From IMG/VR virus record IMGVR_UViG_3300028590_000016, positions 1 through 62,672 of that record: 62,672 bases of DNA, one strand, 5' to 3'. The DNA is from a virus. Lineage: Duplodnaviria > Caudoviricetes. The notes under the pieces were generated by a model. The model made no database searches and had not been told where the DNA came from. It was given only the letters and a program-made list of their open reading frames with translations. Both the position numbers and the translations under genes were made by a program. Shown piece by piece: positions 2,300-57,334 of the stretch (position 1 is the first letter of the stretch; every line of letters begins with the position of its first letter).

Positions 2300-2342
2300 A
2301 AAATCTGATGGAAGCGGAAGGCACGCCGCGACCGCAGACGAT

Positions 2343-2365
2343 AGCCCGCCTCGGCGGGTTTTTTT
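2343..2365 (+). terminator. Intrinsic terminator
   Basis: CCCGCC-TC-GGCGGG followed by T7. Confidence 0.8.
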
Positions 2366-2392
2366 GTGCCTGAAAAACCTGTGAGGTGATCT

Positions 2393-2863
2393 ATGAAAAT
2401 GAGTGACAAGGGCACCGAGTTCTTCGGTGTTGACCCCGCGCAATCGCCGGCCGTATTCAAACTCGGCTGCATTACTGGTATCGACGGCCTCTCTGGCGCT
2501 CGCCAGCAGATCGACGTGACGTGCTTCAGCTCCGAGGAAATGGAGTATGAGGCCGGTCGCGCAAATCCGGGCCAGATCACGATTTCCGGTATCTACGACA
2601 CCGACGACTTGGTGTTCCCGCAACTGGTGGCGCTGAAGGACAACGGCACTACGATCGGCTGGTACATCGGCGGTAGCGATGGAACTGACCCGCCGACCGA
2701 AAACAGCATCGGTGAAGTGGAACCGCCGACGACTCGTACCGGTATCGACTTCCGGGGCTACGTCGCCGACATCACGTGGCAGATTCAGCCGAACAACAAG
2801 TGGCGCTACCAGCTCATTATCCAGCGAAGCGGCCCTTGGCATCTGACGCCGAAGACGCCGTAA
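2393..2863 (+). CDS. Major tail tube protein
   Basis: QIDVTCF..EYEAGRANPGQIT, FRGYV; synteny. Confidence 0.88.
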   Translation: MKMSDKGTEFFGVDPAQSPAVFKLGCITGIDGLSGARQQIDVTCFSSEEMEYEAGRANPGQITISGIYDTDDLVFPQLVALKDNGTTIGWYIGGSDGTDPPTENSIGEVEPPTTRTGIDFRGYVADITWQIQPNNKWRYQLIIQRSGPWHLTPKTP

Positions 2864-3263: not shown

Positions 3264-3637
3264 CAGCGGGCGGCGAGGAATTCTTCGCGCATCTGCTTGC
3301 TTTGAAGATGCATGAGCCGAATGTTCGCCGATTGCTGGCGAGCATCAGTCATCGCCAGTTCCAGAAGTGGGTAATTTTCACAAAGCTGCATAGCATCGAT
3401 TCCGACGAGCGGGTAGATGCGGCGATTGCACGAGTTGGCGTAGCTGGGCTACGTGCGATGGGAGCGAAGAATGTGAGCGTTGATGACTTCGATCCCTTGC
3501 GGTTCAAACCGGTGCGCCCGAAGAAATCGCGGCCCGAGGACGGCAGTAAGAAAGGTAAGAAATCCATAGGTCTTGACCCCGCGATCTTTGCCGCCTTTGC
3601 GGCCAGTGATCCAGCAGTAGCGAAAAGGAAGAAGTAG
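3260..3637 (+). CDS. gpGT-like frameshift extension of the tail chaperone
   Basis: -1 frame reads LAAGGEEFFAHLLALKM..VRRLLASISHRQFQKW. Confidence 0.8.
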   Translation, partial: LAAGGEEFFAHLLALKMHEPNVRRLLASISHRQFQKWVIFTKLHSIDSDERVDAAIARVGVAGLRAMGAKNVSVDDFDPLRFKPVRPKKSRPEDGSKKGKKSIGLDPAIFAAFAASDPAVAKRKK

Positions 3638-6600
3638 TGGCGAATTCAGTCGGCTCCGTCCAAATTGATCTTGAGGCGAGGCTGGCTAAGTTTGAGTCGG
3701 ATATTGGCCGCGCCGCGCGCATCCTCGAAAGAGAAATGGCGCGTGGCGCGGCTCAGGCCGAGCGTGCGATGCAGCAGATGCAGCAGAAGGTCACGCGGGA
3801 GCTTGAGAAGATTCAGCAGGCAGGCGCACAGATCGGCCGCGCGTTCGTTGGCTGGTTCAGCGCGCAGGCTATTGCTGGATTCGCACAGGGGCTTGCAAGA
3901 GTAGCCGATAGCTACGCAAACATTCAGGCTAAGGTTCGGCTTGCTGCTGGTGAGCAAACGAACCTAGCCGAAGCGACGCAGAAGGTTTTCGCAGTCGCGC
4001 AGAACACGTTTAACTCGTTTGAATCGACGACGGCGCTTGTACAGCGTACCGCGCTAGCCCTGCGCAATGCAGGTAAGGACGCGTCGACAGCTTTCACTAC
4101 CGGCGTGCAGCTCGCCGAAGTCTTCAATAAATCGCTTGTCGTCTCCGGCGCGTCGGCCATAGAGGCCGCTTCATCCGCTATGCAGTTCTCGCAAGCGCTC
4201 GCGTCCGGAAAGTTCCAGGGCGATGAGTTCCGCTCCGTCATGGAGAACAATTCCCGATTCGCTCAACTGCTGGCTGACTCTCTTGGGGTTACCACGGCCA
4301 AGTTGCGCGAGATGTCGACCGCCGGGAAGCTCAACATTGAATCGATGCTTGGCGTTGTCCGCAATACGGAAAAGCTGGACGCCGAGTTCGCGAAGATGCC
4401 GGTGACGATTAGCCGTGCGACGACACAGCTTTCCAACGCGTGGACGAAGTTCATCGGTGAGACAGATCAGGCGGCAGGTTCATCGCGGGCAATCGCTGAG
4501 GCCATTCAACTGCTCGCCGGTCGGCTGCCAGCCCTAGTTGATTCCGTCCTGCGTCTTACCACGGTTTTCGTCACCTACTTCGCTGTCTTTCGAGTTGCGC
4601 CGGCACTATACGCTGCGAGCACCGCTGCATTAGCGGCTTACACCGCCGCACTGACATCTTCGTCAATCGCCGCTGAGCTTGGAATGACGGCGAACGCCAA
4701 GTTCTCTCTTTCCATGAACACGGCTGAGATTGCCGCAGCGTCGCTGACAGTCAAGCTTCAGGCTCTTTCGGTTCTATTGTTCTCGGGTTTCGTTGGTTGG
4801 GAAATCGGCAGCATTTTGCGCGAGCAGTTCGTGGAAGTTCGCGTCGCCGGTATCGCAATGGTGGAAGGCTTGCTGGTCGCATGGGAGCGCTTCAAGGAAG
4901 GCGCCAAGATTGCGGCAGCGACCATTCAAGCGGCTTTCGGGAATCTTGATGAGGTGCTTGGGCTTAGCTTGAAGTCGTTGGCCTTGGGCTGGGCGAAATT
5001 CTTTGACTTCGTTCCGGCTATCCCCGGTGGCGCGCAAATCGCAGAAGGCCTGCGCGGCATCGTCTCTGAGATGGGTCCAGCAATCAACACATCGGCTCTG
5101 CTGGCTGGTTCGGTCGCCAATATCCGACTTGAAACCGAGCTTGCCATCGGCGCCATTCGTGAAAGCACTGGCGCCCTTGCCGAGGCGGAGCTTGCGGGGG
5201 ACAAGGTTGCTACGGCGCATGCAAAAGTAGCGCAGAGCACGGCTGCTGCCGCGCAGCAGATGGATACGCTGACGGTCAAGGCACCAGAGCAAGCCAAGGC
5301 GGTGAATTCAGCCGAAAGCGCGCTCAACGGCTACAACGATGCGCTGGCTAGACTTGAGAATTTGGCCGATCGTTCGTCGAAGGCTCTTGGGCCGCTGGAA
5401 AAGGCCGAATCCGATCACGCGATGCGCGTGCGGGAAATTGATGCCGCGCTGCAGAAAGCGATCGACAAGTCGGAAGAATACTTTGCAGAGACGGCACGGC
5501 AGGTACCGCTAGCCGATCGAGTAGCGGCCAAACTGCGGATGGTGGCCGAGGCTAGAGCTAAGCATGCGGCGGCCATGGGCGTAGAGGATGACGCGAATAA
5601 AGAGCGCATCGCCTCCGCGCAAAAAGAAATCGACGTTCTTTCTCCGCTACTGCAGAAACTCAAGGATCGAACCGACAACATTGGCCTGAGCGATCGAGAC
5701 CTTGATATCGCAAATCAGGTCAGAGAATTGCGCCAAGAGTATTCTGAACTGACGGAAGCGGCGAAGGCTGCAAATCCGCCGCTTGAGGTCATGGAAGCGA
5801 CGCTGCGGAAACAGGCTGGTGCAACGTATGACGCCGAGAAGGCTGCCGAGTCTTGGCGCAATGCGTGGGAGAACGTAGTTGATGGCGTCTCGCGCGCGAT
5901 CGGTGATTTTGCTACAGGCCAGATTAGGACGTGGAAGGACTTCACCCGTTCGTTGGTGGATACGTTCAAGCGAGCAGTTGCGGACATCATTTCTGAGTGG
6001 GCGAAGACGGCGATTATGAAGTCGTTCGCTGGTGGTGGTGGAAGCATTTGGGGCGGCCTTATCTCTGCTGGCGCCGCGATGCTCGGTGGCAGCGGCAAGG
6101 GAACGGCTGGTGGCGAAACTGGCGGCTTCACGTACGGGCCACAGGCTTCTAGCAACCCATTCAGCGGCAACGGAATGCTACTGAACTACGCCACGAACTA
6201 TGCCGGCGGTGGTGGTTCCATGGGCAGCGGTTCGGTTCCAGGATTCGGTGGCAACGTCGGTTCTACGATGGCGTTCGGTGGCGCCTTGATGGGCGCGCAG
6301 TACGGCATGACGCGCGGTGATGGTGGCATGGGCACCTTGGGCAGCACTGCGGCTGGCGCCATTGCTGGCTATTGGGCTGGCACCGTGGCTGCTGGTGCGA
6401 TCCTTGGTGCGTCTGCTGGTGCTGCGGCGGGTGGCACTGCTGTGGCGGTGTCTGGTGCCGCTTCCGGCGCAATGGGCGCCGCAGCTGCGGTTCCTGTGAT
6501 CGGCTGGATCGCCCTTATCGCTCTGGTCGCCGACTACTTCAGCGATGGCAACGTGTTCGGCACGAAATGGCGTCCGTCCGAGCATCGTTCGGAACTGAGC

Positions 6601-8703
6601 TTCAGCGACGAGGGGGCAACGGCTACTTCGCAAATCGACGAATGGCGGAAACAGAGCCAGTGGAGCCAGGCGTGGGGCCGTGTCTTTACCGGTGGTGCGC
6701 TGCTGCCTTCGGATTGGGGTGACAAGGATCGTCGCACGCGCGATCTTGCGGTCGATCCCGAGGTGTTGGAAGCGATCAAGAAGATCCATACCGACCTTCA
6801 GAACACGTATGAGAAGGCTGCGCAGCAGTTGGGCATCGCGGTCATTCCGATGCTTGATGCGACGTTCGACACGATCACGACTTACACGGAAAAGGGGAAG
6901 GTCAAGACGACGAAGACGGTTGGGACGATCCTCGGGCAGATGTACGAGGAACCGCTGGATCAGTTCGTGAAGCGCATGCACGCGGAAGCGATCATCCAAT
7001 CTTTGGACTCGATCGTGAAGGGCGCATCGGCTGCTGCGGAGGCTTACCGCAAGAATGCTGACGACTTACTCGACGTCGCGGCGATGATGACGCAGGCGCA
7101 CCTCGATCAGAAGGAAGGCAACGTGTTGCTCGGTGCTGGCGACAGCATGGAGGACATCGTTGCTTGGGTCGAAAAGCTGCGCGTCGGCGAAGAAAAGCTG
7201 ACGGACACGTATTCGCGTCTGCAGCAGGCTTCACAGGCTTACTTCGGAATCTTGGAGCGCGCTAACGAAGCATTGACCGCGATCAAGACGCCGAACACGC
7301 CTTTGGCGCAGATGCGTACTGCCCTGGAACAGATCGACGAACAGTTGGCTGAAAACATCAAGGGGTTGAACGATGCGGCTATCGCGGCGGGTCTCACTGC
7401 GGCAAAGGAAGAAGACCTTGCGAGGATTCGGGAACTTGCGGCGGCGCAGATAGACAAAATTGCGAACGACTTCTTTGCTGGGATCGATCAGCAAATTGAA
7501 GCGATGAACACGGATCACACGCCGGCTGGCGATTTCGCTATGACGATGCGTGCGATTTCGCGGCAGATGTACGACAACATCGAGGCAGCGAACATGCTGG
7601 CTCGGGCGCAGGGTCGTACCGGGGCTAGCACGACGCAGTTGGCGCGCATCCACGAGCTTGCAGCCCGTCAGGCTGCGGCAGCGATTCGCCAGCTTGAAAC
7701 GATCGCGCAACAACAAGTGCGTAGTCTCTACGGCACCGCGTACACGCTTGCCGATGTTGATGCGGATATCGCGGAGTTGGAAGGCCGTGCGGGCGCAGCG
7801 GCGCAAGCGGTGCAGGACTTCGGTTCTGCGATGGGTGATGCGGCCTCGGCTGCGTCTGACGCCATCAATCTGTTGCTTGGTGACCTCAGCCCGCTGAACG
7901 ATCAGCAGAAGTTGCAGACCGCGTTGGGCGGACTGCAGGCTGGCACGGTGTCGCAGGAGCAAGTGCTTCAGATTGGCCGTCGTCTGTATGCGAGCACGGC
8001 GCAATACAACGCGTTGTTCTGGCAAGTCATGAACATGGGGTCGCGCGCTGCGAACGGTGGTGGCGGTTCCGCTGCTGGGCAGGCTGACCCGAATACAGCG
8101 AAGCCGCTGACGTCGGAAGAGCAGGAGCGGTTGGCGCAGCTCTATGAACGTCGCGATGTGCTCCGTGCGCAGGGCCGATTGGAAGAAGCGCGGCAGCTCG
8201 CAGACACTATCGCTTCGCTGGCTGCTGCGAAGGGTCTGACCTTCGAAGAAATCGCGAAAGAACTGAATTTCAACCTTGGCGATTTGGCGGCTGACCTCGG
8301 TCTTACGAACGATGGTTTGCTAGCATATCTGGCTGAGATTGACGTCAATGCGGATGCGGTCCCGGACTCGATCACCTCGAACACGGACAGGTTGCTGGCC
8401 CGTCTGGATCAGTATTTCGGCTCCGGCCAATGGACCGATACCGGCTCTGAATCGACTGGTGACGAGTCCGAAAAGCCAGGCGATATCTCGCCGAACAGTT
8501 CCAAGGAACAGCGCGAATCGCTGGAACCTGTCACGAAGGAAATCGAACTCGGCCGCAGAGCAAGCGCCGTTAACACAGACAGACAGGTGGATTCGACGGA
8601 TCGGACGACTGAGGCCATTGAAGGGCTGCGCGCTGATATCCGTCGACAAGACGCCGATAACCCACGCAGCACTCGATACATGGTTCTGAGGTACGAACGT
8701 TGA
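3637..8703 (+). CDS. Tape measure protein
   Basis: 1688 aa, Ala-rich; QFSQALASGKFQGDEFRSVMEN tape-measure domain; Gly-rich hydrophobic segment. Confidence 0.95.
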   Translation: MANSVGSVQIDLEARLAKFESDIGRAARILEREMARGAAQAERAMQQMQQKVTRELEKIQQAGAQIGRAFVGWFSAQAIAGFAQGLARVADSYANIQAKVRLAAGEQTNLAEATQKVFAVAQNTFNSFESTTALVQRTALALRNAGKDASTAFTTGVQLAEVFNKSLVVSGASAIEAASSAMQFSQALASGKFQGDEFRSVMENNSRFAQLLADSLGVTTAKLREMSTAGKLNIESMLGVVRNTEKLDAEFAKMPVTISRATTQLSNAWTKFIGETDQAAGSSRAIAEAIQLLAGRLPALVDSVLRLTTVFVTYFAVFRVAPALYAASTAALAAYTAALTSSSIAAELGMTANAKFSLSMNTAEIAAASLTVKLQALSVLLFSGFVGWEIGSILREQFVEVRVAGIAMVEGLLVAWERFKEGAKIAAATIQAAFGNLDEVLGLSLKSLALGWAKFFDFVPAIPGGAQIAEGLRGIVSEMGPAINTSALLAGSVANIRLETELAIGAIRESTGALAEAELAGDKVATAHAKVAQSTAAAAQQMDTLTVKAPEQAKAVNSAESALNGYNDALARLENLADRSSKALGPLEKAESDHAMRVREIDAALQKAIDKSEEYFAETARQVPLADRVAAKLRMVAEARAKHAAAMGVEDDANKERIASAQKEIDVLSPLLQKLKDRTDNIGLSDRDLDIANQVRELRQEYSELTEAAKAANPPLEVMEATLRKQAGATYDAEKAAESWRNAWENVVDGVSRAIGDFATGQIRTWKDFTRSLVDTFKRAVADIISEWAKTAIMKSFAGGGGSIWGGLISAGAAMLGGSGKGTAGGETGGFTYGPQASSNPFSGNGMLLNYATNYAGGGGSMGSGSVPGFGGNVGSTMAFGGALMGAQYGMTRGDGGMGTLGSTAAGAIAGYWAGTVAAGAILGASAGAAAGGTAVAVSGAASGAMGAAAAVPVIGWIALIALVADYFSDGNVFGTKWRPSEHRSELSFSDEGATATSQIDEWRKQSQWSQAWGRVFTGGALLPSDWGDKDRRTRDLAVDPEVLEAIKKIHTDLQNTYEKAAQQLGIAVIPMLDATFDTITTYTEKGKVKTTKTVGTILGQMYEEPLDQFVKRMHAEAIIQSLDSIVKGASAAAEAYRKNADDLLDVAAMMTQAHLDQKEGNVLLGAGDSMEDIVAWVEKLRVGEEKLTDTYSRLQQASQAYFGILERANEALTAIKTPNTPLAQMRTALEQIDEQLAENIKGLNDAAIAAGLTAAKEEDLARIRELAAAQIDKIANDFFAGIDQQIEAMNTDHTPAGDFAMTMRAISRQMYDNIEAANMLARAQGRTGASTTQLARIHELAARQAAAAIRQLETIAQQQVRSLYGTAYTLADVDADIAELEGRAGAAAQAVQDFGSAMGDAASAASDAINLLLGDLSPLNDQQKLQTALGGLQAGTVSQEQVLQIGRRLYASTAQYNALFWQVMNMGSRAANGGGGSAAGQADPNTAKPLTSEEQERLAQLYERRDVLRAQGRLEEARQLADTIASLAAAKGLTFEEIAKELNFNLGDLAADLGLTNDGLLAYLAEIDVNADAVPDSITSNTDRLLARLDQYFGSGQWTDTGSESTGDESEKPGDISPNSSKEQRESLEPVTKEIELGRRASAVNTDRQVDSTDRTTEAIEGLRADIRRQDADNPRSTRYMVLRYER

Positions 8704-45047: not shown

Positions 45048-45931
45048 TGGCCTGCGATTGGATCAAGATGCGGACTGACCTCTATCGTGATCCGAAGGTA
45101 TGTCTGATCGCTGAAATTTTGGACTCCGGCGATGGGCAGCTTGCGCGTTACGTGAACCAAAACACAGGGTGTGACATGAGTGTAACGCGTAACGTAACGC
45201 GTAACGCGACCGTTGGTGCGCTCGTAACGGTATGGGGTGTTATGAGGTTGCGCGGAAAGCGCAACGGTGACGATCTTGTGTGCCAAATGGCGACGATTGA
45301 AGTGCTTGATGACATCGCCGACCTGCCTGGTTTCGGTTCCGCCATGGCCTCTGTAGGGTGGGTTGTTGAGACTGAAACGGGGGTAACTTTCCCGCGCTTT
45401 TTCGAGGACTACAACGTTGATCCCGCTGAAAAAACCCCATCTTCCGCTGCTGAGCGCCAGCGCCGATATCGGGACCGCCTGAAGCAAGCTTTGGCGGCGT
45501 CACAAGGTGGCGTAACGCGTGACGATTCAGTGGACTGCGTTAGTAACGTAACGCGTGACGTAACGTTACGCTCTAGAGAAGAGAAGAGAAGAGAAGAGAA
45601 AGAAGATAAAAAGACTTCCTCATCGGCTTCGCCGAATCGGCGCCAAAACCGGTTGGAAGACCCTCCTGGATTCGTCGAGTTCTGGTCTGCGTATCCACGC
45701 AGCAGCGGACGCAAGGATGCCGCGAAAGCTTGGGCGAAGCTCGCACCAGATGCGGCTATGCAGAAAATCATCATGGCCGCTGTGGCGAAGCAAACGCAGT
45801 CAGATGACTGGCGCAGCGATGGGGGCAAGTACATCCCGCATGCGTCGACTTGGATCAATGGCGAGCGCTGGAACGATGGCCTGTTCCGACAACAACCCCA
45901 CGAACTCCCCGAACACTTGCAGGGCATCTGA
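45047..45931 (+). CDS. Replication initiator (lambda O-analogous)
   Basis: DWIKMR.DL..DPKV; AERQRRYR; F.EFWSAYPR..K..A.KAW; YIPHASTWIN..RW.D. Confidence 0.85.
   Translation: MACDWIKMRTDLYRDPKVCLIAEILDSGDGQLARYVNQNTGCDMSVTRNVTRNATVGALVTVWGVMRLRGKRNGDDLVCQMATIEVLDDIADLPGFGSAMASVGWVVETETGVTFPRFFEDYNVDPAEKTPSSAAERQRRYRDRLKQALAASQGGVTRDDSVDCVSNVTRDVTLRSREEKRREEKEDKKTSSSASPNRRQNRLEDPPGFVEFWSAYPRSSGRKDAAKAWAKLAPDAAMQKIIMAAVAKQTQSDDWRSDGGKYIPHASTWINGERWNDGLFRQQPHELPEHLQGI
45182..45614 (+). repeat. Putative origin: GTAACG(C) iteron clusters and AGAGA tract inside the initiator gene
   Basis: GTAACG/GTGACG arrays at 45182-45208 and 45512-45570; purine tract 45575-45614. Confidence 0.65.
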
Positions 45932-48849
45932 TGCGCGCGACCGAGATAGCAAAGCTGCTGGCGAGACAGGCCGAGGATGTAGCGCGGAAACTTCTGCCGA
46001 ACGGGAAGCGCCACGGGCGGGAATGGAAAGTGGGCAGCGTCGGGGGCGAGGCTGGGGAATCTCTTGGCGTTTGCCTCAGTGGCGATCGTGCCGGAGCATG
46101 GGCTGATTTCAGTACTGGCGATACCGGCGACCTTATCGGGCTATGGATGGCTGTAGCGAATCTGGACTTGCGGGAGGCATGCGAGGAAGCGATTGCGTAT
46201 CTTGGCGTCGCTGAACATCGCGTCGAGAATCCGAAACCAGCCTACAAACGCCCGACGAAGGAGAACGTCAGCAAGCTCAGCGACGAGCACTATGCATGGC
46301 TGACCGAAGTACGATTGATCGCGCCGGCAACGATTGCGGCGTACAAGCTCGCGACGAAGGCCACCGGGCGCGGTGTCGCGCTGATGTTCCCATACCTGCG
46401 TGATGGCGAATTGCTCGCGGCGAAATATCGCGGAGCGCCTGAGAAAACCTTTTGGACCGACTCAGAGTGCGAGCCGTGCTTGTTCGGCTGGCAGGCTATC
46501 CCGGCAGCGCAGCGCGAATTGGTGCTCTGTGAGGGAGAGCTAGACGCACTGGCATGGCACACATTCGGTCATGCCGCGCTATCGGTTCCGTTCGGAGGCG
46601 GCGGTGGCAACAAGCAGCAGTGGGTGCCAAATGAGTTCGACAGGCTTGCGCGCTATGACGTGCTGTACCTGTCCATGGACATGGACAAGTCTGGACAGGA
46701 GGCGGTTGCTGAACTGGTCAGTCGTCTCGGCCGTGAGCGCTGCCGTATAGTCGAACTGCCACGCAAGGACGCGAACCAATGCCTGATCGATGGCTTCACC
46801 GTCGAGGACATGGCGGCAGCAAAGAAGCGCGCTCGCACGCTGGACCCCGCCGAACTTCGCAATGCTGGCGAGTTCGAGGATGCGGTGTGGGCCGAGTTCA
46901 ACCGCACTGACGAAGGCCTGAGACTCCCTTGGCGGAAAACACACGATTCGCTTTTGCTCAGGGCCGGCGAGACGTCTTTTTGGGCGGGTGTGAACGGGCA
47001 CGGGAAAGCGCTCAGTTTGGACACAAGAATCCCGACGCCCTCTGGCTGGTCGACGATGGGTGACTTGAAACCGGGGGATTGGGTTTTTGACGAAAACGGG
47101 ATGCCGTGCGAGGTCGTTGCGCAAACAGCGGTGATGCTAGAACGGCCGGTCTTCAAAATCACATTCTCTGACGGCTCGGAAATTGTGGCCGACGCTGAAC
47201 ACGAATGGCTTACTTTCACAGCAAAAGCCAGGCAAAGCTTTCGCAATGCCAAGATGAACAGCCGTCTCGAAGGGGGCGCCACAAAAAGATTTGGGAGCGA
47301 CCAAAGCCACAAGAGAACCAAGCCATCCATTGTCACGACAGCTCAAATCGCCAGCGGCGTATTCGTAACTGGCGGCTGCTGGGAAGGGCTTTCGGAGCAT
47401 AGCATTCAAGTTTCTGGCCCCCTTCAGTGCGAACTAGTCGAATTGCCAGTCGACCCTTACTTGCTTGGTGTTTGGCTTGGCGATGGGACGACAGCCAGTT
47501 CAGCGATAACCACCGCTGACACCGAGATAGTTCAGAGGTTCACAAGGGCTGGGCACATTGTTACGAAACTTTCATCTCCGTACGGATACGGAATCACGGG
47601 AGGCCACTTTGTCCGAGGACTAAAGACGGCGAGAGTCTTAGGCAACAAGCATATCCCTGCGATTTATTTGAGAGCCAGTTTCGAGCAGCGACTAGCGCTT
47701 CTGCAGGGGCTGATGGACACTGATGGACACGTCACTGCATACGGAAGATGCGAGTTCACAAACACAAACAAGCGACTTGCCGATGCAGTTCTTGAGCTTG
47801 TCCTGTCGCTCGGCATTCAGGCCAAGATGATCGGCGGACGGGCTATGCTGTATGGGAAGGATTGTGGCCCCAAGTACCGGATCACGTTCACGCCGGATTT
47901 GCCTGTCGCGACTCTACCTCGCAAAGCGGCACGGCTTCGCAAAGTAATTTCAGATCGAGTCAAGCACCGATTCATAGTTGGATGTCAGCCGGTAGAATCA
48001 GTGCCAGTCAAATGTATCCAAGTGAATTCTAAGAGCCATATGTACTTGGCTGGCGAAACAATGATCCCCACGCACAACAGCGCCGTGGTCAGCCACATCG
48101 TCGGATCATTGGCTTGTGATGGGGTGCTTTGTTGCGTCGCCTCGATGGAGTTTCGAACGTCGAAATGGCTCATGCGAATGGCTCGACAGATCGCTGCGCG
48201 CAGCGATCCAACTGAAGTGTACGTGCGGCATATCGTTCAATGTTTGGCTGAATCGCTTTGGACTTTTGACGTAGCAGGGCGCGCAAAGGCAGATAGAATT
48301 CTTGAGGTCTTTGAATACGCTCGTAGGCGATATGGGATCGAGCTTTTTGTTCTCGACAACCTCACGAAGTGCGGTTTCGCCGACGATGATTTTCCGGGGC
48401 AGAAAGCTTTCGTTGAGACGTTGACCGACTTCGCGCGGGATACACGGACACATGTAGCGGTGGTCGCTCATATGCGCAAAGGTGAATCAGAAGACAAGCC
48501 GTCAGGCAAGTTCGGTGTCAAGGGTTCGGGCGGCATCATCGACATGTGCGATACGCTCGTCGAGGTCTGGCGCAACAAGAAGCGCGAGGCGGCAATTCGT
48601 ATCGCGAAAGAGACTGGCAATCCAATTGATCCGGACTACGCTGATCAGGCAGACACGATGCTGTATGTCCGCAAGCAGCGCGAGACCGGCATTGAACCAG
48701 CGATCAAGCTTTGGTTCGATCCTGACTCGACGCAGTTCCTTGGGAAGGCCGATCACAGGGCGCTGCCGCTGTTGAATCGGACGTGCGTCCCGGTGCAGGA
48801 CGATGGCGGGGCGAATGGCGCTCACGGATATGAGGCAAACGTGCAATGA
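45931..48849 (+). CDS. Toprim primase-SF4 helicase with intein
   Basis: CEGELDAL, DMD..G (Toprim); Walker A GVNGHGK|S; LDNL, VAH.RK, VKGSG.I.D. Confidence 0.9.
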   Translation: MRATEIAKLLARQAEDVARKLLPNGKRHGREWKVGSVGGEAGESLGVCLSGDRAGAWADFSTGDTGDLIGLWMAVANLDLREACEEAIAYLGVAEHRVENPKPAYKRPTKENVSKLSDEHYAWLTEVRLIAPATIAAYKLATKATGRGVALMFPYLRDGELLAAKYRGAPEKTFWTDSECEPCLFGWQAIPAAQRELVLCEGELDALAWHTFGHAALSVPFGGGGGNKQQWVPNEFDRLARYDVLYLSMDMDKSGQEAVAELVSRLGRERCRIVELPRKDANQCLIDGFTVEDMAAAKKRARTLDPAELRNAGEFEDAVWAEFNRTDEGLRLPWRKTHDSLLLRAGETSFWAGVNGHGKALSLDTRIPTPSGWSTMGDLKPGDWVFDENGMPCEVVAQTAVMLERPVFKITFSDGSEIVADAEHEWLTFTAKARQSFRNAKMNSRLEGGATKRFGSDQSHKRTKPSIVTTAQIASGVFVTGGCWEGLSEHSIQVSGPLQCELVELPVDPYLLGVWLGDGTTASSAITTADTEIVQRFTRAGHIVTKLSSPYGYGITGGHFVRGLKTARVLGNKHIPAIYLRASFEQRLALLQGLMDTDGHVTAYGRCEFTNTNKRLADAVLELVLSLGIQAKMIGGRAMLYGKDCGPKYRITFTPDLPVATLPRKAARLRKVISDRVKHRFIVGCQPVESVPVKCIQVNSKSHMYLAGETMIPTHNSAVVSHIVGSLACDGVLCCVASMEFRTSKWLMRMARQIAARSDPTEVYVRHIVQCLAESLWTFDVAGRAKADRILEVFEYARRRYGIELFVLDNLTKCGFADDDFPGQKAFVETLTDFARDTRTHVAVVAHMRKGESEDKPSGKFGVKGSGGIIDMCDTLVEVWRNKKREAAIRIAKETGNPIDPDYADQADTMLYVRKQRETGIEPAIKLWFDPDSTQFLGKADHRALPLLNRTCVPVQDDGGANGAHGYEANVQ
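47008..48078 (+). mobile_element. Class 3 intein (Ala1) with LAGLIDADG homing endonuclease, 357 aa
   Basis: Begins ALSLDT, has HEW and VKCIQV, ends PTHN before Ser; LGVWLGDG and LQGLMDTDG. Confidence 0.9.
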
Positions 48850-54459: not shown

Positions 54460-54736
54460 AGTCCTAGTCGCGGCACGGAAGCGGATAGAGCGCGTGATCA
54501 ACAGCTATACGGCTTTCACGGCTACTTTGAAGCTACAGGATGCTTGCCATCAATGTGGGCAGCCGGGCTTGTACAGAGATGCGTATCGCGCTCTGCTGGG
54601 CGAAGCAACTGCTTCAAATCTTAGTGGCGGACCGGCTGAAATTGGTAGTCTCGCAGATATCGCCAGAGCCATTGGCAAGGAAGCCACGCTAGCCCTGTTC
54701 GATCGCGCCATCGCGGCGCAAAAGGAAGTGCCATGA
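54443..54736 (+). CDS. DUF6197-like paralog (divergent)
   Basis: STREVLVAARKRI..LALFDRAIAA. Confidence 0.62.
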   Translation: MNSTREVLVAARKRIERVINSYTAFTATLKLQDACHQCGQPGLYRDAYRALLGEATASNLSGGPAEIGSLADIARAIGKEATLALFDRAIAAQKEVP

Positions 54737-54738
54737 TG

Positions 54739-55185
54739 CTGGAATTAGCTGGTCTGGCCGAGTCGAATTCGTGAAATTCGACCGAAACTCAGACAGGCTA
54801 ATTTCAGACAACAGAAGACATAAAGGATCTTTGGGACACCCTATGGGAGCTAAGCTCGTACCTTCATGCTGGTATCGCTCTGGAACTGTCCGGATCGGTT
54901 TCCCATCCATAGGACTCCGACAAGTCACCCACGTGTCCGCTAACCCGGTTTTGAAGGCGCCGATCCTCAAAGCGCCCGAAAGCGATAGCCTATTCTGACG
55001 TGCAGGCGGCCGACCCCATGACTACGCGCGTCTTGGCGCTGGGGTGGCAAGGGGATGGAAGGGTAGGTTAGACTTACGAAACAGTTTGGTGTCTGCGGCC
55101 CTTGCAACACCAGATTGGGCCGGTCGAGCGTCTAACTCGACCGGCCACCTGATCATACACCGCTGGAATGGAAGCCAGTGGTGTG
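54739..55185 (+). ncRNA. Candidate large structured ncRNA(s) upstream of the tRNA cluster
   Basis: More than 10 nested stems; no credible ORF. Confidence 0.6.
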
Positions 55186-55206
55186 AAGTTCGCAATAGAT
55201 AGTTTT

Positions 55207-55293
55207 GGTGCGTTCCGCTAGGTGGCTAGCAGCCGGTCTTGAAAACCGGAGGTGACCGCAAGGTTAAGGGTTCGACTCCTTAGCGCACCGCCA
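55207..55293 (+). tRNA. tRNA-Ser(TGA)
   Basis: Cloverleaf, CCGGT-CTTGAAA-ACCGG, long variable arm, TTCGACT, GCCA. Confidence 0.9.
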
Positions 55294-55297
55294 AATT

Positions 55298-55386
55298 GGA
55301 AGGTTAAGCGGGAAGGTTCCCGCACTGGTTTGCTAAACCAAGTGCTCCGGCAGCGGAGTGTGGATCAAGACCACAGCCTTCCTCCA
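55298..55386 (+). tRNA. tRNA-Ser(GCT), atypical T loop
   Basis: GGAAGGT/GCCTTCC acceptor, TTGCTAA loop, long variable arm, ATCAAGA T loop, TCCA. Confidence 0.8.
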
Positions 55387-55394
55387 AGTTGTAC

Positions 55395-55471
55395 GGAGGC
55401 GTAGCTTAGCGGTTTAAAGCATCGGCCTGTCGAGCCGACGACCATGGGTTCGAATCCCATCGTCTCCGCCA
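55395..55471 (+). tRNA. tRNA-Asp(GTC)
   Basis: TCGGC-CTGTCGA-GCCGA, TTCGAAT, GCCA. Confidence 0.92.
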
Positions 55472-55544
55472 GTTGTTGTTAGCCTGATGAGGCCGTGAGG
55501 CCGAAACATGCGCGCAAGGAAGCGCCATGTAGCTAGCTGGCGGC
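55472..55544 (+). ncRNA. Type I hammerhead ribozyme, predicted cut after A55531
   Basis: Stem I GTTAGC/GCTAGC; CTGATGA 55484-55490; stem II GGCC-GTGA-GGCC; GAAA 55503-55506; stem III CATG..CATG; GUA triplet. Confidence 0.9.
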
Positions 55545-55679
55545 AGCGAATGCCGGCGGGTCTACATCTCAAGCGTGAGGTCGCAGGTTCAAATCCTGCC
55601 GTGGGTGAAAGCCCACGTAGCTCAGTGGTTAGAGCGCATGAAACGACTCGCCAAACCCTTGTCGCTGCTGTCCAGCTAG
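55532..55679 (+). ncRNA. YrlA-like Y RNA (circularly permuted tRNA mimic)
   Basis: Long terminal stem with CGAATG opposite CTTGTC; T arm, then GAAA-capped acceptor stem, then D arm. Confidence 0.82.
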
Positions 55680-55682
55680 AAC

Positions 55683-55761
55683 ATGCCCGCATAGCTCAGT
55701 CTGGTAGAGCAGCGTATTTGTAATTCGTTTGCCGGTGGTTCGAATCCACCCGGGCGTGCCA
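55683..55761 (+). tRNA. Atypical tRNA-Thr(TGT)-like gene
   Basis: Canonical D and T arms and CCA; acceptor register shifted 2 nt; weak anticodon stem. Confidence 0.6.
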
Positions 55762-55762
55762 A

Positions 55763-55836
55763 GCGGGTATGGGATAGTGGCTGTTCCTTGGTCTTCCAAG
55801 CCAATGACGCGCGTTCGATTCGCGCTATCCGCTCCA
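55763..55836 (+). tRNA. tRNA-Gly(TCC)
   Basis: GCGGGTA/TATCCGC, TTGGT-CTTCCAA-GCCAA, TTCGATT, TCCA. Confidence 0.9.
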
Positions 55837-55854
55837 ATATTTGACTTACTGTGC

Positions 55855-55883
55855 TTGAAATCCCGAGAACCGGGGGCTAAACT
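55855..55883 (+). promoter_or_regulatory. Putative late promoter (pR'-like)
   Basis: TTGAAA-17-TAAACT upstream of a hairpin and the lysis genes. Confidence 0.6.
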
Positions 55884-55937
55884 GGTCAAAGTCGATAGCT
55901 GCGCCAGATTGATTTGCGAGTGAAATTCGACCATTGA

Positions 55938-55970
55938 GAGGCCCGCCAAGTGCGGGCTTCCGTCGTTTCT
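55938..55970 (+). terminator. tR'-like terminator
   Basis: GAGGCCCGC-CAAGT-GCGGGCTTC with weak T tail. Confidence 0.55.
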
Positions 55971-56510: not shown

Positions 56511-56705
56511 ATGGGCGAGCACAGCCCCGCTTTCGTGGCATTTTTTGCTGCTGGCATCGCCGGGTTCATGCATGCCACGGTTGAGTCGTATCCGGGCTGG
56601 TATGTTTGGGTTGGTGTCGTTGCGGTTGGCGCCGCTCTGCTGTACTGGATCGGCAGCGTCATCGCTCGCGCCATGGCAGGAAATGCCCGTCGGTCGCCGC
56701 GCTGA
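56511..56705 (+). CDS. Small 2-TM membrane protein
   Basis: Two hydrophobic helices; coupled to endolysin. Confidence 0.55.
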   Translation: MGEHSPAFVAFFAAGIAGFMHATVESYPGWYVWVGVVAVGAALLYWIGSVIARAMAGNARRSPR

Positions 56706-57334
56706 TGGACGCCAAGCTTTTGGCCGCCGCCTGTGGGCTTGAGATGCGCCTTGCCGAGTTATGGGCGCCGCATATCACGGCTGCGATGACAAATTGGGGC
56801 ATCGACTCGCCGGCACGGCGCGCGATGTTTCTAGCGCAGTGCGCGCATGAATCAGACGGCTTCGAAGAACTCGAAGAAAACCTCAACTATTCCGCCGAAG
56901 GATTGGCGCGGACATGGCCGAACCGGTATGCCGAAGGCGGGGAGCCGAATGCGCTAGCATTGCGAATCGCTCGTAAGCCTGAGCTGATTGCGAACTACAC
57001 ATACGCGAACCGTATGGGGAACGGCCCCCCTGAGTCTGGTGACGGTTGGAAATACCGGGGTCGTAGCCTGATCGGCATCACCGGACGCGATATGTACCGC
57101 CGCGCTGGTTCTGCGGTTGGCCTCGATCTGATCAAATCTCCCGAACTCGCAACCGTTCCATCGAACGCCGCGCAGATCGCAGGCTGGCTATGGTCGATCG
57201 AGAAGGGCTGCAATGTTTTCGCTGATCGTGGAGATATTGAGGGGAGTACTCGCGCCATTAATGGTGGGCTGATCGGGCTGCCTGATCGTATGAAGCGGTG
57301 GCATGTCGCCAAGCGCGTGCTGGGAGTGAACTAG
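56705..57334 (+). CDS. Endolysin, glycoside hydrolase family 19
   Basis: AMFLAQCAHES, EENLNYS, GDGWKYRGR.LI.ITGR, TRAINGG.IGL.DR. Confidence 0.93.
   Translation: MDAKLLAAACGLEMRLAELWAPHITAAMTNWGIDSPARRAMFLAQCAHESDGFEELEENLNYSAEGLARTWPNRYAEGGEPNALALRIARKPELIANYTYANRMGNGPPESGDGWKYRGRSLIGITGRDMYRRAGSAVGLDLIKSPELATVPSNAAQIAGWLWSIEKGCNVFADRGDIEGSTRAINGGLIGLPDRMKRWHVAKRVLGVN

What the first reader, a model, noticed from the sequence alone, without database searches (positions are those of the whole stretch)
55395..55761. Hammerhead ribozyme positioned to mature a phage Y RNA (tRNA mimic) inside a tRNA operon
Seen: directly after the CCA of tRNA-Asp (55471) is a complete hammerhead core: CTGATGA 55484-55490, stem II GGCC-GTGA-GGCC, GAAA 55503-55506, stem III CATG/CATG extended by GCGC/GCGC, a GUA triplet at 55529-55531 and stem I GTTAGC/GCTAGC. 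The predicted cut leaves G55532, one base before the terminal helix of a YrlA-like RNA (55533 pairs with 55679). A tRNA-like gene starts 3 nt after that helix. Established: hammerheads leave a 5'-OH and a 2',3'-cyclic phosphate; RNase P cuts at tRNA 5' ends; bacterial Y RNAs bind Ro60/Rsr and are often encoded with RtcB, which joins those end types. Inference: the phage excises a defined Y RNA using the ribozyme (5' end) and RNase P (3' end). The 5'-OH could slow RNase E decay, and the cyclic-phosphate tRNA-Asp trailer could engage host RtcR/RtcB. I know of no described tRNA-hammerhead-Y RNA cassette.
Basis: partly seen in the sequence, partly recalled or inferred. Interest (0 to 1): 0.95.

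Follow-up and report, generated by a model that had tools for sequence, protein, structure and literature searches.

The report
Hammerhead ribozyme that trims phage Y RNA
A soil phage carries a self-cutting hammerhead RNA placed exactly in front of a Y-type small RNA inside its tRNA gene row, an arrangement that recurs in unrelated phages and suggests a concrete job for a ribozyme class whose role in phages has been unclear.

Summary
Window 55472-55544 (+) is a complete type I hammerhead, with all 11 core nucleotides and stems I-III, predicted to cut after A55531. It lies between tRNA-Asp (55395-55471) and an RNA that passes Rfam's YrlA threshold (69.7 bits, cut-off 69). That RNA's terminal helix (55533-55679) starts one base after the cut and ends 3 nt before tRNA-Thr (55683).

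A hand-written descriptor finds this one hammerhead in the window. Shuffled windows give 0.037 hits each.

The arrangement recurs. Pattern scans found about nine further lineages in viral and metagenome contigs with a type I hammerhead directly upstream of a Y-RNA-like stem. The core is invariant, all three stems covary, and the Y helix starts +1 to +3 from the cut. A tRNA follows 3-5 nt after the Y helix in five loci (four lineages), the window included. Three control scans gave 0 such pairs.

No Ro60 or RtcB gene is present. Rfam's hammerhead models miss the motif. No paper found links hammerheads with Y RNAs.

Best reading (about 0.7): the ribozyme cuts co-transcriptionally to set the Y RNA 5' end and RNase P sets the 3' end. 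Cleavage is not shown, and no RNA data exist.

The parts
55207..55293 (+). tRNA-Ser (UGA), first gene of the array
   Evidence: ARAGORN
55395..55471 (+). tRNA-Asp (GUC) with encoded CCA at 55469-55471. After the ribozyme cuts, it carries a 60-nt 3' trailer, which is the ribozyme itself
   Evidence: ARAGORN; Rfam tRNA, 72.3 bits
55472..55544 (+). Type I hammerhead ribozyme. Stem I is 55472-83 / 55532-44 (inner 6 bp 55478-83 / 55532-37). Core C3-A9 is 55484-90. Stem II is 55491-94 / 55499-502. G12-A14 is 55503-05. Stem III is 55506-15 / 55522-30. H17 is A55531
   Evidence: Sequence; MFE fold; descriptor and shuffles; covariation across 9 lineages
55531..55532 (+). Predicted self-cleavage site, between A55531 (left with a 2',3'-cyclic phosphate) and G55532 (left with a 5'-OH)
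   Evidence: Position of U16.1-H17 relative to the core. The end chemistry is established hammerhead knowledge and was not measured here
55532..55682 (+). Predicted mature YrlA-like Y RNA (151 nt). Terminal helix is 55533-49 / 55663-79. The Ro60-module look-alike is GCGAAUGC 55546-53 ... CUUGUCGC 55658-65. The tRNA-like domain has a T arm (about 55582-55598) and a D arm (about 55619-55635)
   Evidence: Rfam YrlA, 69.7 bits against GA 69, 55543-55671; fold z-score -5.97
55683..55761 (+). tRNA-Thr (UGU). RNase P cleavage at its 5' end would leave the Y RNA with a 3-nt 3' tail (AAC, 55680-82)
   Evidence: ARAGORN; Rfam tRNA, 49 bits. The RNase P step is inferred
55763..55836 (+). tRNA-Gly (UCC), last gene of the array
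   Evidence: ARAGORN
55938..55960 (+). Terminator-like hairpin after the array
   Evidence: Consensus scan; 3 sites found against 2.1 expected, so this is weak

Best explanation
The window is a soil siphovirus-like phage record. Its tRNA row is transcribed as one precursor: tRNA-Ser, a tRNA-like cloverleaf, tRNA-Asp, hammerhead, Y RNA, tRNA-Thr, tRNA-Gly.

Proposed steps:
1. As soon as the polymerase has made 55472-55544, the nascent RNA folds into a type I hammerhead. The 3' strand of its stem I is the first 6-13 nt of the future Y RNA.
2. The ribozyme cuts after A55531. This leaves the Y RNA with a 5'-OH G55532, one base ahead of its terminal helix. It leaves tRNA-Asp with the ribozyme as a 60-nt trailer ending in a cyclic phosphate.
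3. When the Y RNA 3' strand (55663-79) emerges, the 17-bp Y helix takes over the stem I strand. This releases the product and makes the cut irreversible.
4. RNase P, cutting at tRNA-Thr, sets the 3' end 3 nt after the helix.

The result is a 151-nt YrlA-type Y RNA with defined ends. It presumably acts with the host's Ro60/Rsr, because the phage has no Ro60 gene.

Shown: the motif, its position, and its recurrence and covariation in other phages. Inferred: the cleavage, its timing, the RNase P step and Ro60 binding.
For: 1. Motif. There is a complete core and three stems, and it is the only descriptor hit in the window. Shuffled windows give 0.037 hits each.

2. Recurrence.
- The scan CTGATGAG..CGAAA..GCGAATGC in viral contigs gave 21 loci. 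Five passed the hammerhead descriptor, and in all five it lies directly before a Y-like stem (L009, L011, L014, L016, L019).
- The metagenome scan gave 117 loci, 6 of them valid (L175, L184, L190, L206, L224, L245).
- In 826 kb of fetched loci the descriptor found 7 hammerheads, all at Y stems. Shuffles gave 0, 0, 0, 1, 0.

3. Controls.
- A permuted 8-mer in place of the Y motif gave 7 loci and 0 hammerheads.
- N7 = A/C/G gave 10 loci and 0 hammerhead-Y pairs.
- One genome for each of 185,579 prokaryote species gave 65 pattern matches and 0 valid pairs.

4. Covariation in 9 non-redundant lineages. The core is invariant. Stem I positions 1-4, stem II positions 2-3 and stem III positions 3-4 each show 2-5 pair types with no mismatch. 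Stem II position 4 and stem III position 5 each have one mismatch, and stem III position 6 has two.

5. Geometry. The Y helix starts +1 to +3 after the cut in the 9 loci folded and at +1 in L019. A tRNA starts 3-5 unpaired nt after the helix in WIN, L206, L011 and L016 and in L014.

6. The hammerhead is not serving the upstream tRNA. ARAGORN finds no tRNA directly upstream in L009, L011, L014, L016, L019, L184 or L245.

7. Module behaviour. In the related phage locus L175, homology to the window resumes at 55476, two bases before the inner 6-bp stem I strand and inside the extended one.

8. Folding. The nascent transcript folds as the hammerhead. In the full-length precursor the modelled fraction with stem I formed is 1.8e-5, a penalty of 6.7 kcal/mol.
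Against: - No cleavage or RNA-end data exist. No RNA run holding the stretch was listed.
- Rfam's curated hammerhead models do not reach threshold.
- No stem I / stem II tertiary contact could be shown, so activity at cellular Mg2+ is unproven.
- Most phage Y-like stems have no hammerhead. Of 75 Y-pattern hits, 44-48 pass crude structure filters, and only WIN, L009, L011, L014 and L016 have one upstream. The ribozyme is therefore optional.
- If the Y helix forms first, the ribozyme is predicted to be inactive, so efficiency depends on kinetics I cannot measure.
- The only close relative, L175, has a weakened stem II and mutations at conserved Y positions. It may be decaying.
- No Ro60 gene lies in the window or in 5 other virus records that carry a hammerhead-Y pair.
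- All collection searches used exact patterns (GCGAATGC, CTGATGAG..CGAAA). Counts are therefore lower bounds from a biased sample.
Confidence: 0.7

Rival explanations
1. The hammerhead is active, but its job is to uncouple transcripts. It would separate the Y RNA and downstream tRNAs from upstream RNA, as an insulator or stability switch. Its closeness to the Y RNA end would be a by-product.
For: Phage intergenic hammerheads of unknown role are known (Perreault 2011, PMC3088659, passages read). In L011 and L014 a terminator-like hairpin lies just upstream of the ribozyme.
Against: The cut falls +1 to +3 from the Y helix in the 9 loci folded and at +1 in L019. An insulator would not need that precision. 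All 7 hammerheads found in 826 kb sit at Y stems, and none sits between other genes.
Confidence: 0.12
2. The hammerhead fold and the Y fold are mutually exclusive, and this acts as a regulated switch. Only a controlled fraction of transcripts is cut, so the ribozyme doses the amount of mature Y RNA rather than simply maturing it.
For: The modelled equilibrium fraction with stem I formed ranges from 0.65 to 3e-8 among 7 lineages. Stem I always uses the Y RNA's own 5' strand.
Against: Any type I hammerhead that cuts at the 5' end of a hairpin must share that strand, so the competition may be only geometric. No ligand site or regulator was identified.
Confidence: 0.1
3. The motif is a chance or decayed hammerhead look-alike with no activity.
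For: Rfam hammerhead models score below threshold. The relative L175 has a stem II mismatch.
Against: Shuffles give 0.037 hits per window. The core is invariant and the stems covary in 9 lineages. Three control scans gave 0 (filtered).
Confidence: 0.04
4. Hammerhead plus Y RNA is a selfish or mobile RNA or DNA module, of the retrozyme or circular-RNA kind, that spreads among phage tRNA rows.
For: In L175, homology with the window resumes close to the ribozyme's 5' edge (at 55476) and stops inside tRNA-Thr (at 55723), with large unrelated DNA on both sides.
Against: There is only one ribozyme per unit and no second cleavage site. No reverse transcriptase or integrase link was examined. A 5'-OH together with the 3'-OH left by RNase P would not be substrates for RtcB-type circularisation (established chemistry, an inference).
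Confidence: 0.04

Closest known systems
Theta (minimal HDV-like) ribozymes next to phage tRNAs (Kienbeck et al. 2024, PMC10879173; abstract read)
   Same: A small self-cleaving ribozyme sits in a phage tRNA context. Its cleavage site abuts a structured small RNA, and it is proposed to replace a protein nuclease in end maturation.
   Different: The fold is HDV-like, not hammerhead. It acts on tRNA 3' ends. Here a hammerhead lies upstream and would set the 5' end of a Y RNA. The word 'hammerhead' occurs 0 times in that paper.
Bacterial and phage hammerhead ribozymes (Perreault et al. 2011, PMC3088659; passages read)
   Same: It has the same 11-nt core, three stems and type I topology, and it lies in a phage intergenic region.
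   Different: The passages I read give no function and mention no link to Y RNA or to tRNA rows. Rfam's models built from known members miss this one.
YrlA-type bacterial and mycobacteriophage Y RNAs (Chen et al. 2014, PMC4201824; passages read)
   Same: It matches Rfam YrlA above threshold. It has a stem with the CGAA-type motif and a tRNA-like domain with T and D arms.
   Different: Those RNAs lie beside a Ro60 gene. Here there is no Ro60 gene in 62.7 kb, the RNA sits in a tRNA row and a ribozyme precedes it. 'Ribozyme' occurs 0 times in that paper.
Thermus phage phiLo Ro60 with Yrl1/Yrl2 (PMC12135203; passages read)
   Same: These are phage-encoded Y-like RNAs proposed to act with host PNPase.
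   Different: That phage encodes its own Ro60. No ribozyme is mentioned ('ribozyme' occurs 0 times).
Engineered ribozyme-guide RNA-ribozyme cassettes and tRNA-guide RNA arrays (recalled, from no call)
   Same: The logic is the same: a hammerhead upstream and a tRNA or RNase P site downstream release a small RNA with exact ends from a long transcript.
   Different: Those are man-made. This would be a natural counterpart.

Membership tests
Hammerhead ribozyme (type I) | Conserved core: C3 U4 G5 A6 N7 G8 A9, G12 A13 A14, and the A15.1-U16.1 pair | tested here: met
   55484-90 is CUGAUGA, 55503-05 is GAA, and A55506 pairs with U55530
Hammerhead ribozyme (type I) | Three helices around the core. 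Stems II and III are closed by loops and stem I is open | tested here: met
   MFE fold of 55472-55545; stems of 6(+6), 4 and 5(+4) bp
Hammerhead ribozyme (type I) | The cleavage-site nucleotide H17 is not G | tested here: met
   A55531; A or C in all 11 loci examined
Hammerhead ribozyme (type I) | Stems are kept by compensatory changes among relatives | tested here: met
   In 9 non-redundant lineages there are 2-5 pair types per position in the inner parts of stems I-III and the core is invariant. The register was taken from the core, not from a covariance model
Hammerhead ribozyme (type I) | Reaches the gathering score of a curated Rfam hammerhead model | tested here: not met
   Hammerhead_3 scores 24.6 bits against 48.5; Hammerhead_1 gives no match at E<=10
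Hammerhead ribozyme (type I) | A tertiary contact between stems I and II, needed for fast cleavage | tested here: inconclusive
   Loop II is GUGA on a 4-bp stem, and there is a U bulge 6 bp into stem I. No test of a contact was possible
Hammerhead ribozyme (type I) | Mg2+-dependent self-cleavage giving a 2',3'-cyclic phosphate and a 5'-OH | not testable with these tools
   No RNA run was listed
YrlA (Rfam RF02553) Y RNA | Reaches the Rfam gathering score | tested here: met
   69.7 bits against 69, 55543-55671, full model 1-114. The margin is narrow
YrlA (Rfam RF02553) Y RNA | A stem carrying the GNCGAAN0-1G motif (Chen 2014) | tested here: inconclusive
   The window has AGCGAAUG at 55545-52. 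The first G is an A, and by my reading of the fold it pairs with U55666. The other lineages have GGCGAAUG
YrlA (Rfam RF02553) Y RNA | A tRNA-like domain with a T arm and a D arm | tested here: met
   Alignment to the model: GCAGGUUCAAAUCCUGC and GUAGCUCAGUGGUUAGAGC
YrlA (Rfam RF02553) Y RNA | Encoded next to a Ro60/Rsr (TROVE) gene | tested here: not met
   No PF05731 match in the window at E<=1. The record is estimated 73% complete
YrlA (Rfam RF02553) Y RNA | Binds Ro60/Rsr | not testable with these tools
   The host is unknown and no binding data exist
Theta / HDV-like ribozymes of phage tRNA rows | HDV-like double-pseudoknot fold | tested here: not met
   No HDV-type family appears among the Rfam matches, even at E<=10, in 55150-55900

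The most novel reading that the evidence does not exclude
Phages that lack a Ro60 gene carry a widespread, unannotated class of self-processing cassettes: hammerhead, Y RNA, tRNA. The ribozyme fold and the Y fold exclude each other, so cutting is a one-way, co-transcriptional commitment. It yields a 5'-OH Y RNA with exact ends. That RNA then captures the host Ro60/PNPase machinery, or escapes 5'-end-dependent decay, to the phage's benefit. This would give phage hammerheads a defined biological substrate.
Probability: 0.35. Interest if true: 0.85.

Novelty: new variant of a known kind. Interest (0 to 1): 0.74.

Why it matters
Thousands of hammerheads are known in bacteria and phages, yet hardly any has an assigned substrate. 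Here the substrate is evident from position alone, and the arrangement repeats in unrelated phages. That turns an open question, what phage hammerheads are for, into a bench test on a 370-nt transcript.

It also shows that Y-RNA-like stems are common in phage contigs that have no Ro60 gene. This points to phage use of the host's Ro60 system.

It is a natural counterpart of the ribozyme-and-tRNA tricks used to release guide RNAs.

Routine annotation misses it, because Rfam's hammerhead models do not score these ribozymes above threshold.

Tried and rejected
- Rfam Hammerhead_1 on the window gave no match. Hammerhead_3 scored below threshold.
- The weak Twister-sister hit at 55549-55634 (18.1 bits, E 0.52) lies on the tRNA-like domain. 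I rejected it as chance.
- A blastn search of the phage collection found only tRNA-sized matches, with 0 of 76 records covering at least 80% of the query.
- The search for related loci with the endolysin found no relative.
- A covariance model was planned. The MAFFT alignments (A2, A3) did not put the stems in register, so no model was built. I counted covariation from the core-anchored register instead.
- Two crude filters for 'real' Y stems disagree: they pass 44 and 48 of 75 hits and reject some convincing cases. The denominator is therefore approximate.
- The scan for hammerheads that enclose a Y stem in stem III gave 95 loci, and only L071 qualified. It stays a single case.
- Rfam on 35 Y-bearing loci (238 kb) found no other ribozyme family, and no YrlA match at threshold.
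- Rfam YrlA on 5 virus records gave only sub-threshold matches of 12-24 bits to the short Y stems. Those stems are not YrlA members by Rfam.
- No RNA holder was listed for the stretch.
- Laying the contigs of 4 DNA runs showed only the window form and the L175 form.
- The host was not identified. The primase/helicase has only 34-44% identical relatives, in enterobacterial and Pseudomonas phages.
- Supplementary files of the papers were not opened. Perreault 2011 and Chen 2014 list their hits in supplements, which could hold an unremarked overlap.

Full report
**What the window is.** It is one IMG/VR virus record of 62,672 bases with no end repeats, estimated 73% complete. It encodes a tape measure protein (3637-8703), a primase/helicase (45850-48849), a replication initiator and an endolysin (56606-57334). 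G+C is about 0.59. DNA of this stretch is held by soil metagenome runs. The nearest named phages are distant: the primase/helicase is 34-44% identical to those of enterobacterial and Pseudomonas phages. The host is unknown.

**The observation.** ARAGORN finds tRNA-Ser 55207-55293, tRNA-Asp 55395-55471, tRNA-Thr 55683-55761 and tRNA-Gly 55763-55836, all on the + strand. Rfam places YrlA (RF02553) at 55543-55671 with 69.7 bits against a gathering score of 69.

- CUGAUGA at 55484-90
- stem II GGCC/GGCC with loop GUGA
- GAA at 55503-05
- stem III, starting with the A55506-U55530 pair and continuing as CAUG/CAUG and GCGC/GCGC
- H17 = A55531
- stem I GUUAGC/GCUAGC

The fold of 55472-55545 alone is exactly this junction. 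Stem I extends to 12 bp and begins at the base after the CCA of tRNA-Asp. The topology is type I, with stem I open.

The Y RNA terminal helix pairs 55533-49 with 55663-79. It therefore starts one base after the predicted cut and ends three bases before tRNA-Thr.

**Chance.** I wrote a type I hammerhead descriptor. It requires the core, UH at the cut, and contiguous stems of at least 4, 3 and 4 pairs. It finds one hit in the window, this one. 300 dinucleotide shuffles of the window gave 11 hits (0.037 per window), and 1 was as good as the real one.

Rfam's curated hammerhead models do not support the call. Hammerhead_3 scores 24.6 bits against 48.5 and aligns in the wrong topology. Hammerhead_1 gives nothing at E<=10. 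This counts against formal family membership by Rfam. It also explains why such elements escape routine annotation.

**Relatives elsewhere.**
- The pattern for the hammerhead core followed by the Y motif GCGAATGC matched 21 viral contigs. The descriptor accepts 5 of them (L009, L011, L014, L016, L019). In each, the ribozyme sits directly before a stem of the form GCGAAUGC, 8-9 nt, CUAC ... CUNGUCGC, the module that Rfam's YrlA consensus has at its two ends. Two more (L015, and L008 of type III) looked like hammerheads by eye without a clear Y RNA. The rest are coding-sequence chance matches.
- The metagenome scan gave 117 loci, 6 of them valid (L175, L184, L190, L206, L224, L245).
- After removing near-duplicates there are about nine lineages besides the window.
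- L019, read further in its 77-kb record, has a Y RNA with T and D arms like the window's. The others are short hairpins without a tRNA-like domain. They score only 12-24 bits with the YrlA model, so I call them Y-like stems, not YrlA.

**Controls.**
- Replacing the Y motif by a permuted 8-mer gave 7 loci and no hammerhead.
- Requiring A, C or G at N7 gave 10 loci and no hammerhead-Y pair.
- The same pattern over one genome for each of 185,579 prokaryote species gave 65 matches and no valid pair. That number is about what I had estimated beforehand for chance.
- In the 826 kb of loci held, the descriptor found 7 hammerheads, all at Y stems, against 0, 0, 0, 1, 0 in five shuffles.
- These loci were chosen through Y or hammerhead-plus-Y patterns, so this is not an unbiased survey. 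However, the 75 hits of the two Y-only scans (WIN included) were chosen without any ribozyme requirement. They still contain L009, L011, L014 and L016 with the ribozyme upstream, and L071 with a ribozyme around the Y stem.

**Conservation.** I took the register from the invariant core. In nine non-redundant lineages the 11 core nucleotides are identical. Stem I positions 1-4, stem II positions 2-3 and stem III positions 3-4 carry 2-5 different Watson-Crick or G-U pairs each, without a mismatch. Stem II position 4 and stem III position 5 have one mismatch each, and stem III position 6 has two.

The Y helix begins +1 to +3 after the cut in the 9 loci folded, and at +1 in L019 by eye. ARAGORN places a tRNA 4-6 nt after the last paired base in WIN, L206, L011 and L016, and 5 nt after the motif in L014. 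L206 has the full order tRNA-Met, hammerhead, Y, tRNA-Gly, like the window.

ARAGORN finds no tRNA directly upstream of the ribozyme in L009, L011, L014, L016, L019, L184 or L245. So the ribozyme goes with the Y RNA, not with the preceding tRNA.

**The one close relative.** L175 comes from a related phage whose flanking genes are 85-88% identical. It has 7.9 kb of other DNA in place of window 54727-55475. Homology resumes at 55476, near the 5' edge of the ribozyme, and runs through the Y RNA to the anticodon loop of tRNA-Thr (55723), where it breaks again. The hammerhead core is intact and a U-G pair in stem I has become C-G. But stem II has a C-U mismatch, and conserved Y positions (GUCGC, the T loop) are changed. 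The copy fails the YrlA threshold. It may be a decaying copy. The same two forms are the only ones seen in four soil DNA runs.

**Mechanism.**

Shown:
- The 3' strand of stem I is the 5' end of the Y RNA in every lineage.
- The nascent transcript folds as the ribozyme.
- In the full-length precursor the Y helix wins. For the window the modelled fraction with stem I formed is 1.8e-5, a penalty of 6.7 kcal/mol. In six other lineages it ranges from 0.65 to 3e-8 (nearest-neighbour model, no tertiary terms).

Inferred:
- Cutting happens while the about 119 nt between stem I and the Y 3' strand are being made.
- The Y helix then displaces the ribozyme and prevents religation.
- RNase P sets the 3' end.
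- The product is 55532-55682, with a 5'-OH.

The chemistry of the ends is established hammerhead knowledge. RNase P cleavage of a YrlA acceptor-like stem was shown for M. smegmatis by Chen et al. 2014 (passages read), but that is a different site.

**What the Y RNA does.** There is no Ro60 (TROVE) and no RtcB gene in the window. There is no Ro60 in five other virus records with the pair, three of them estimated at least 90% complete. The RNA would have to use the host's Ro60/Rsr, or act without it. A Thermus phage Ro60 with two Y-like RNAs was proposed to take over host PNPase (PMC12135203, passages read).

**Frequency.** The ribozyme is a minority solution. Of 75 Y-pattern hits, 44 or 48 pass crude structure filters, and five have the ribozyme upstream. 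Others abut a tRNA on the 5' side, at 2-14 nt (L038, L049, L050, L065, L079), or on the 3' side. Embedding in tRNA rows seems to be the general way of releasing these RNAs, with the hammerhead as one variant.

**Literature.** Full-text searches for hammerhead with YrlA, Y RNA, Ro60, Rsr, tRNA cluster or tRNA-associated ribozymes found no paper describing the pairing.
- Chen 2014 and the phiLo paper contain the word 'ribozyme' 0 times.
- Perreault 2011 reports phage intergenic hammerheads without this context (passages).
- The nearest analogue is the theta ribozyme of gut phages, an HDV-like ribozyme whose cut abuts tRNAs (abstract).
- Supplements were closed, and subscription journals are not covered.

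**Verdict.** It is a new variant of a known kind: a hammerhead used for end maturation of a phage Y RNA. Catalysis and RNA ends remain to be shown.

Noticed in passing
window 55298-55386 (+): Between tRNA-Ser and tRNA-Asp lies a four-armed cloverleaf. It has an 8-bp acceptor stem, a long variable arm, a GCU-type anticodon loop and an encoded UCCA tail (fold z-score -3.4). Neither ARAGORN nor Rfam tRNA called it. Its D arm (6 bp, 4-nt loop) and T loop (AUCAAGA) are atypical.
   Followed up: partly
window 54737-55206 (+): About 470 nt upstream of the tRNA row have no convincing ORF and no Rfam match. This may be a leader or another structured RNA.
   Followed up: no
L071 141-237 (+): This hammerhead core has one extra U after A9, and its stem III is the whole Y-like hairpin. 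The cut would therefore fall 3' of the Y stem and leave the ribozyme attached to it. A tRNA-Val ends 5 nt upstream. It is the single case among 95 loci scanned for this layout.
   Followed up: partly
L009, L224, L184, L206, L245, L016 (and L011 or L014 in a variant form), loop of stem III: The distal loop of stem III carries a conserved 11-nt motif of the form RGUGAUYMACA across otherwise diverged lineages. The window's ribozyme lacks it (its loop is AAGGAA). The function is unknown; a tertiary or protein contact is possible.
   Followed up: no
Loci L023-L089 (viral contigs): Short Y-like hairpins (GCGAAUGC..CUAC..CUNGUCGC, about 50-65 nt) are frequent in viral contigs. They are often in or beside tRNA rows and sometimes occur several per locus (L033, L038). 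No Rfam family reaches threshold on them.
   Followed up: partly
L175 2238-10152 and 10405-13739, against window 54727-55734: The related phage has large replacements on both sides of the hammerhead-Y block. One breakpoint lies in the anticodon loop of tRNA-Thr, and a 33-nt piece of that tRNA's 3' part reappears 3.3 kb further on. This looks like recombination or insertion at a tRNA gene.
   Followed up: partly
L278 (record G005) 2330-2404 (-): The 77-kb phage with the second hammerhead plus YrlA-like pair also carries a tRNA with anticodon CUA, which reads UAG. It lies about 0.8 kb upstream on the same strand.
   Followed up: no
L011 7361-7484 (+): A Betaproteobacteria-1 RNA (RF02932, 73.4 bits) lies in the provirus that carries one of the hammerhead-Y pairs. 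This hints at a betaproteobacterial host.
   Followed up: no
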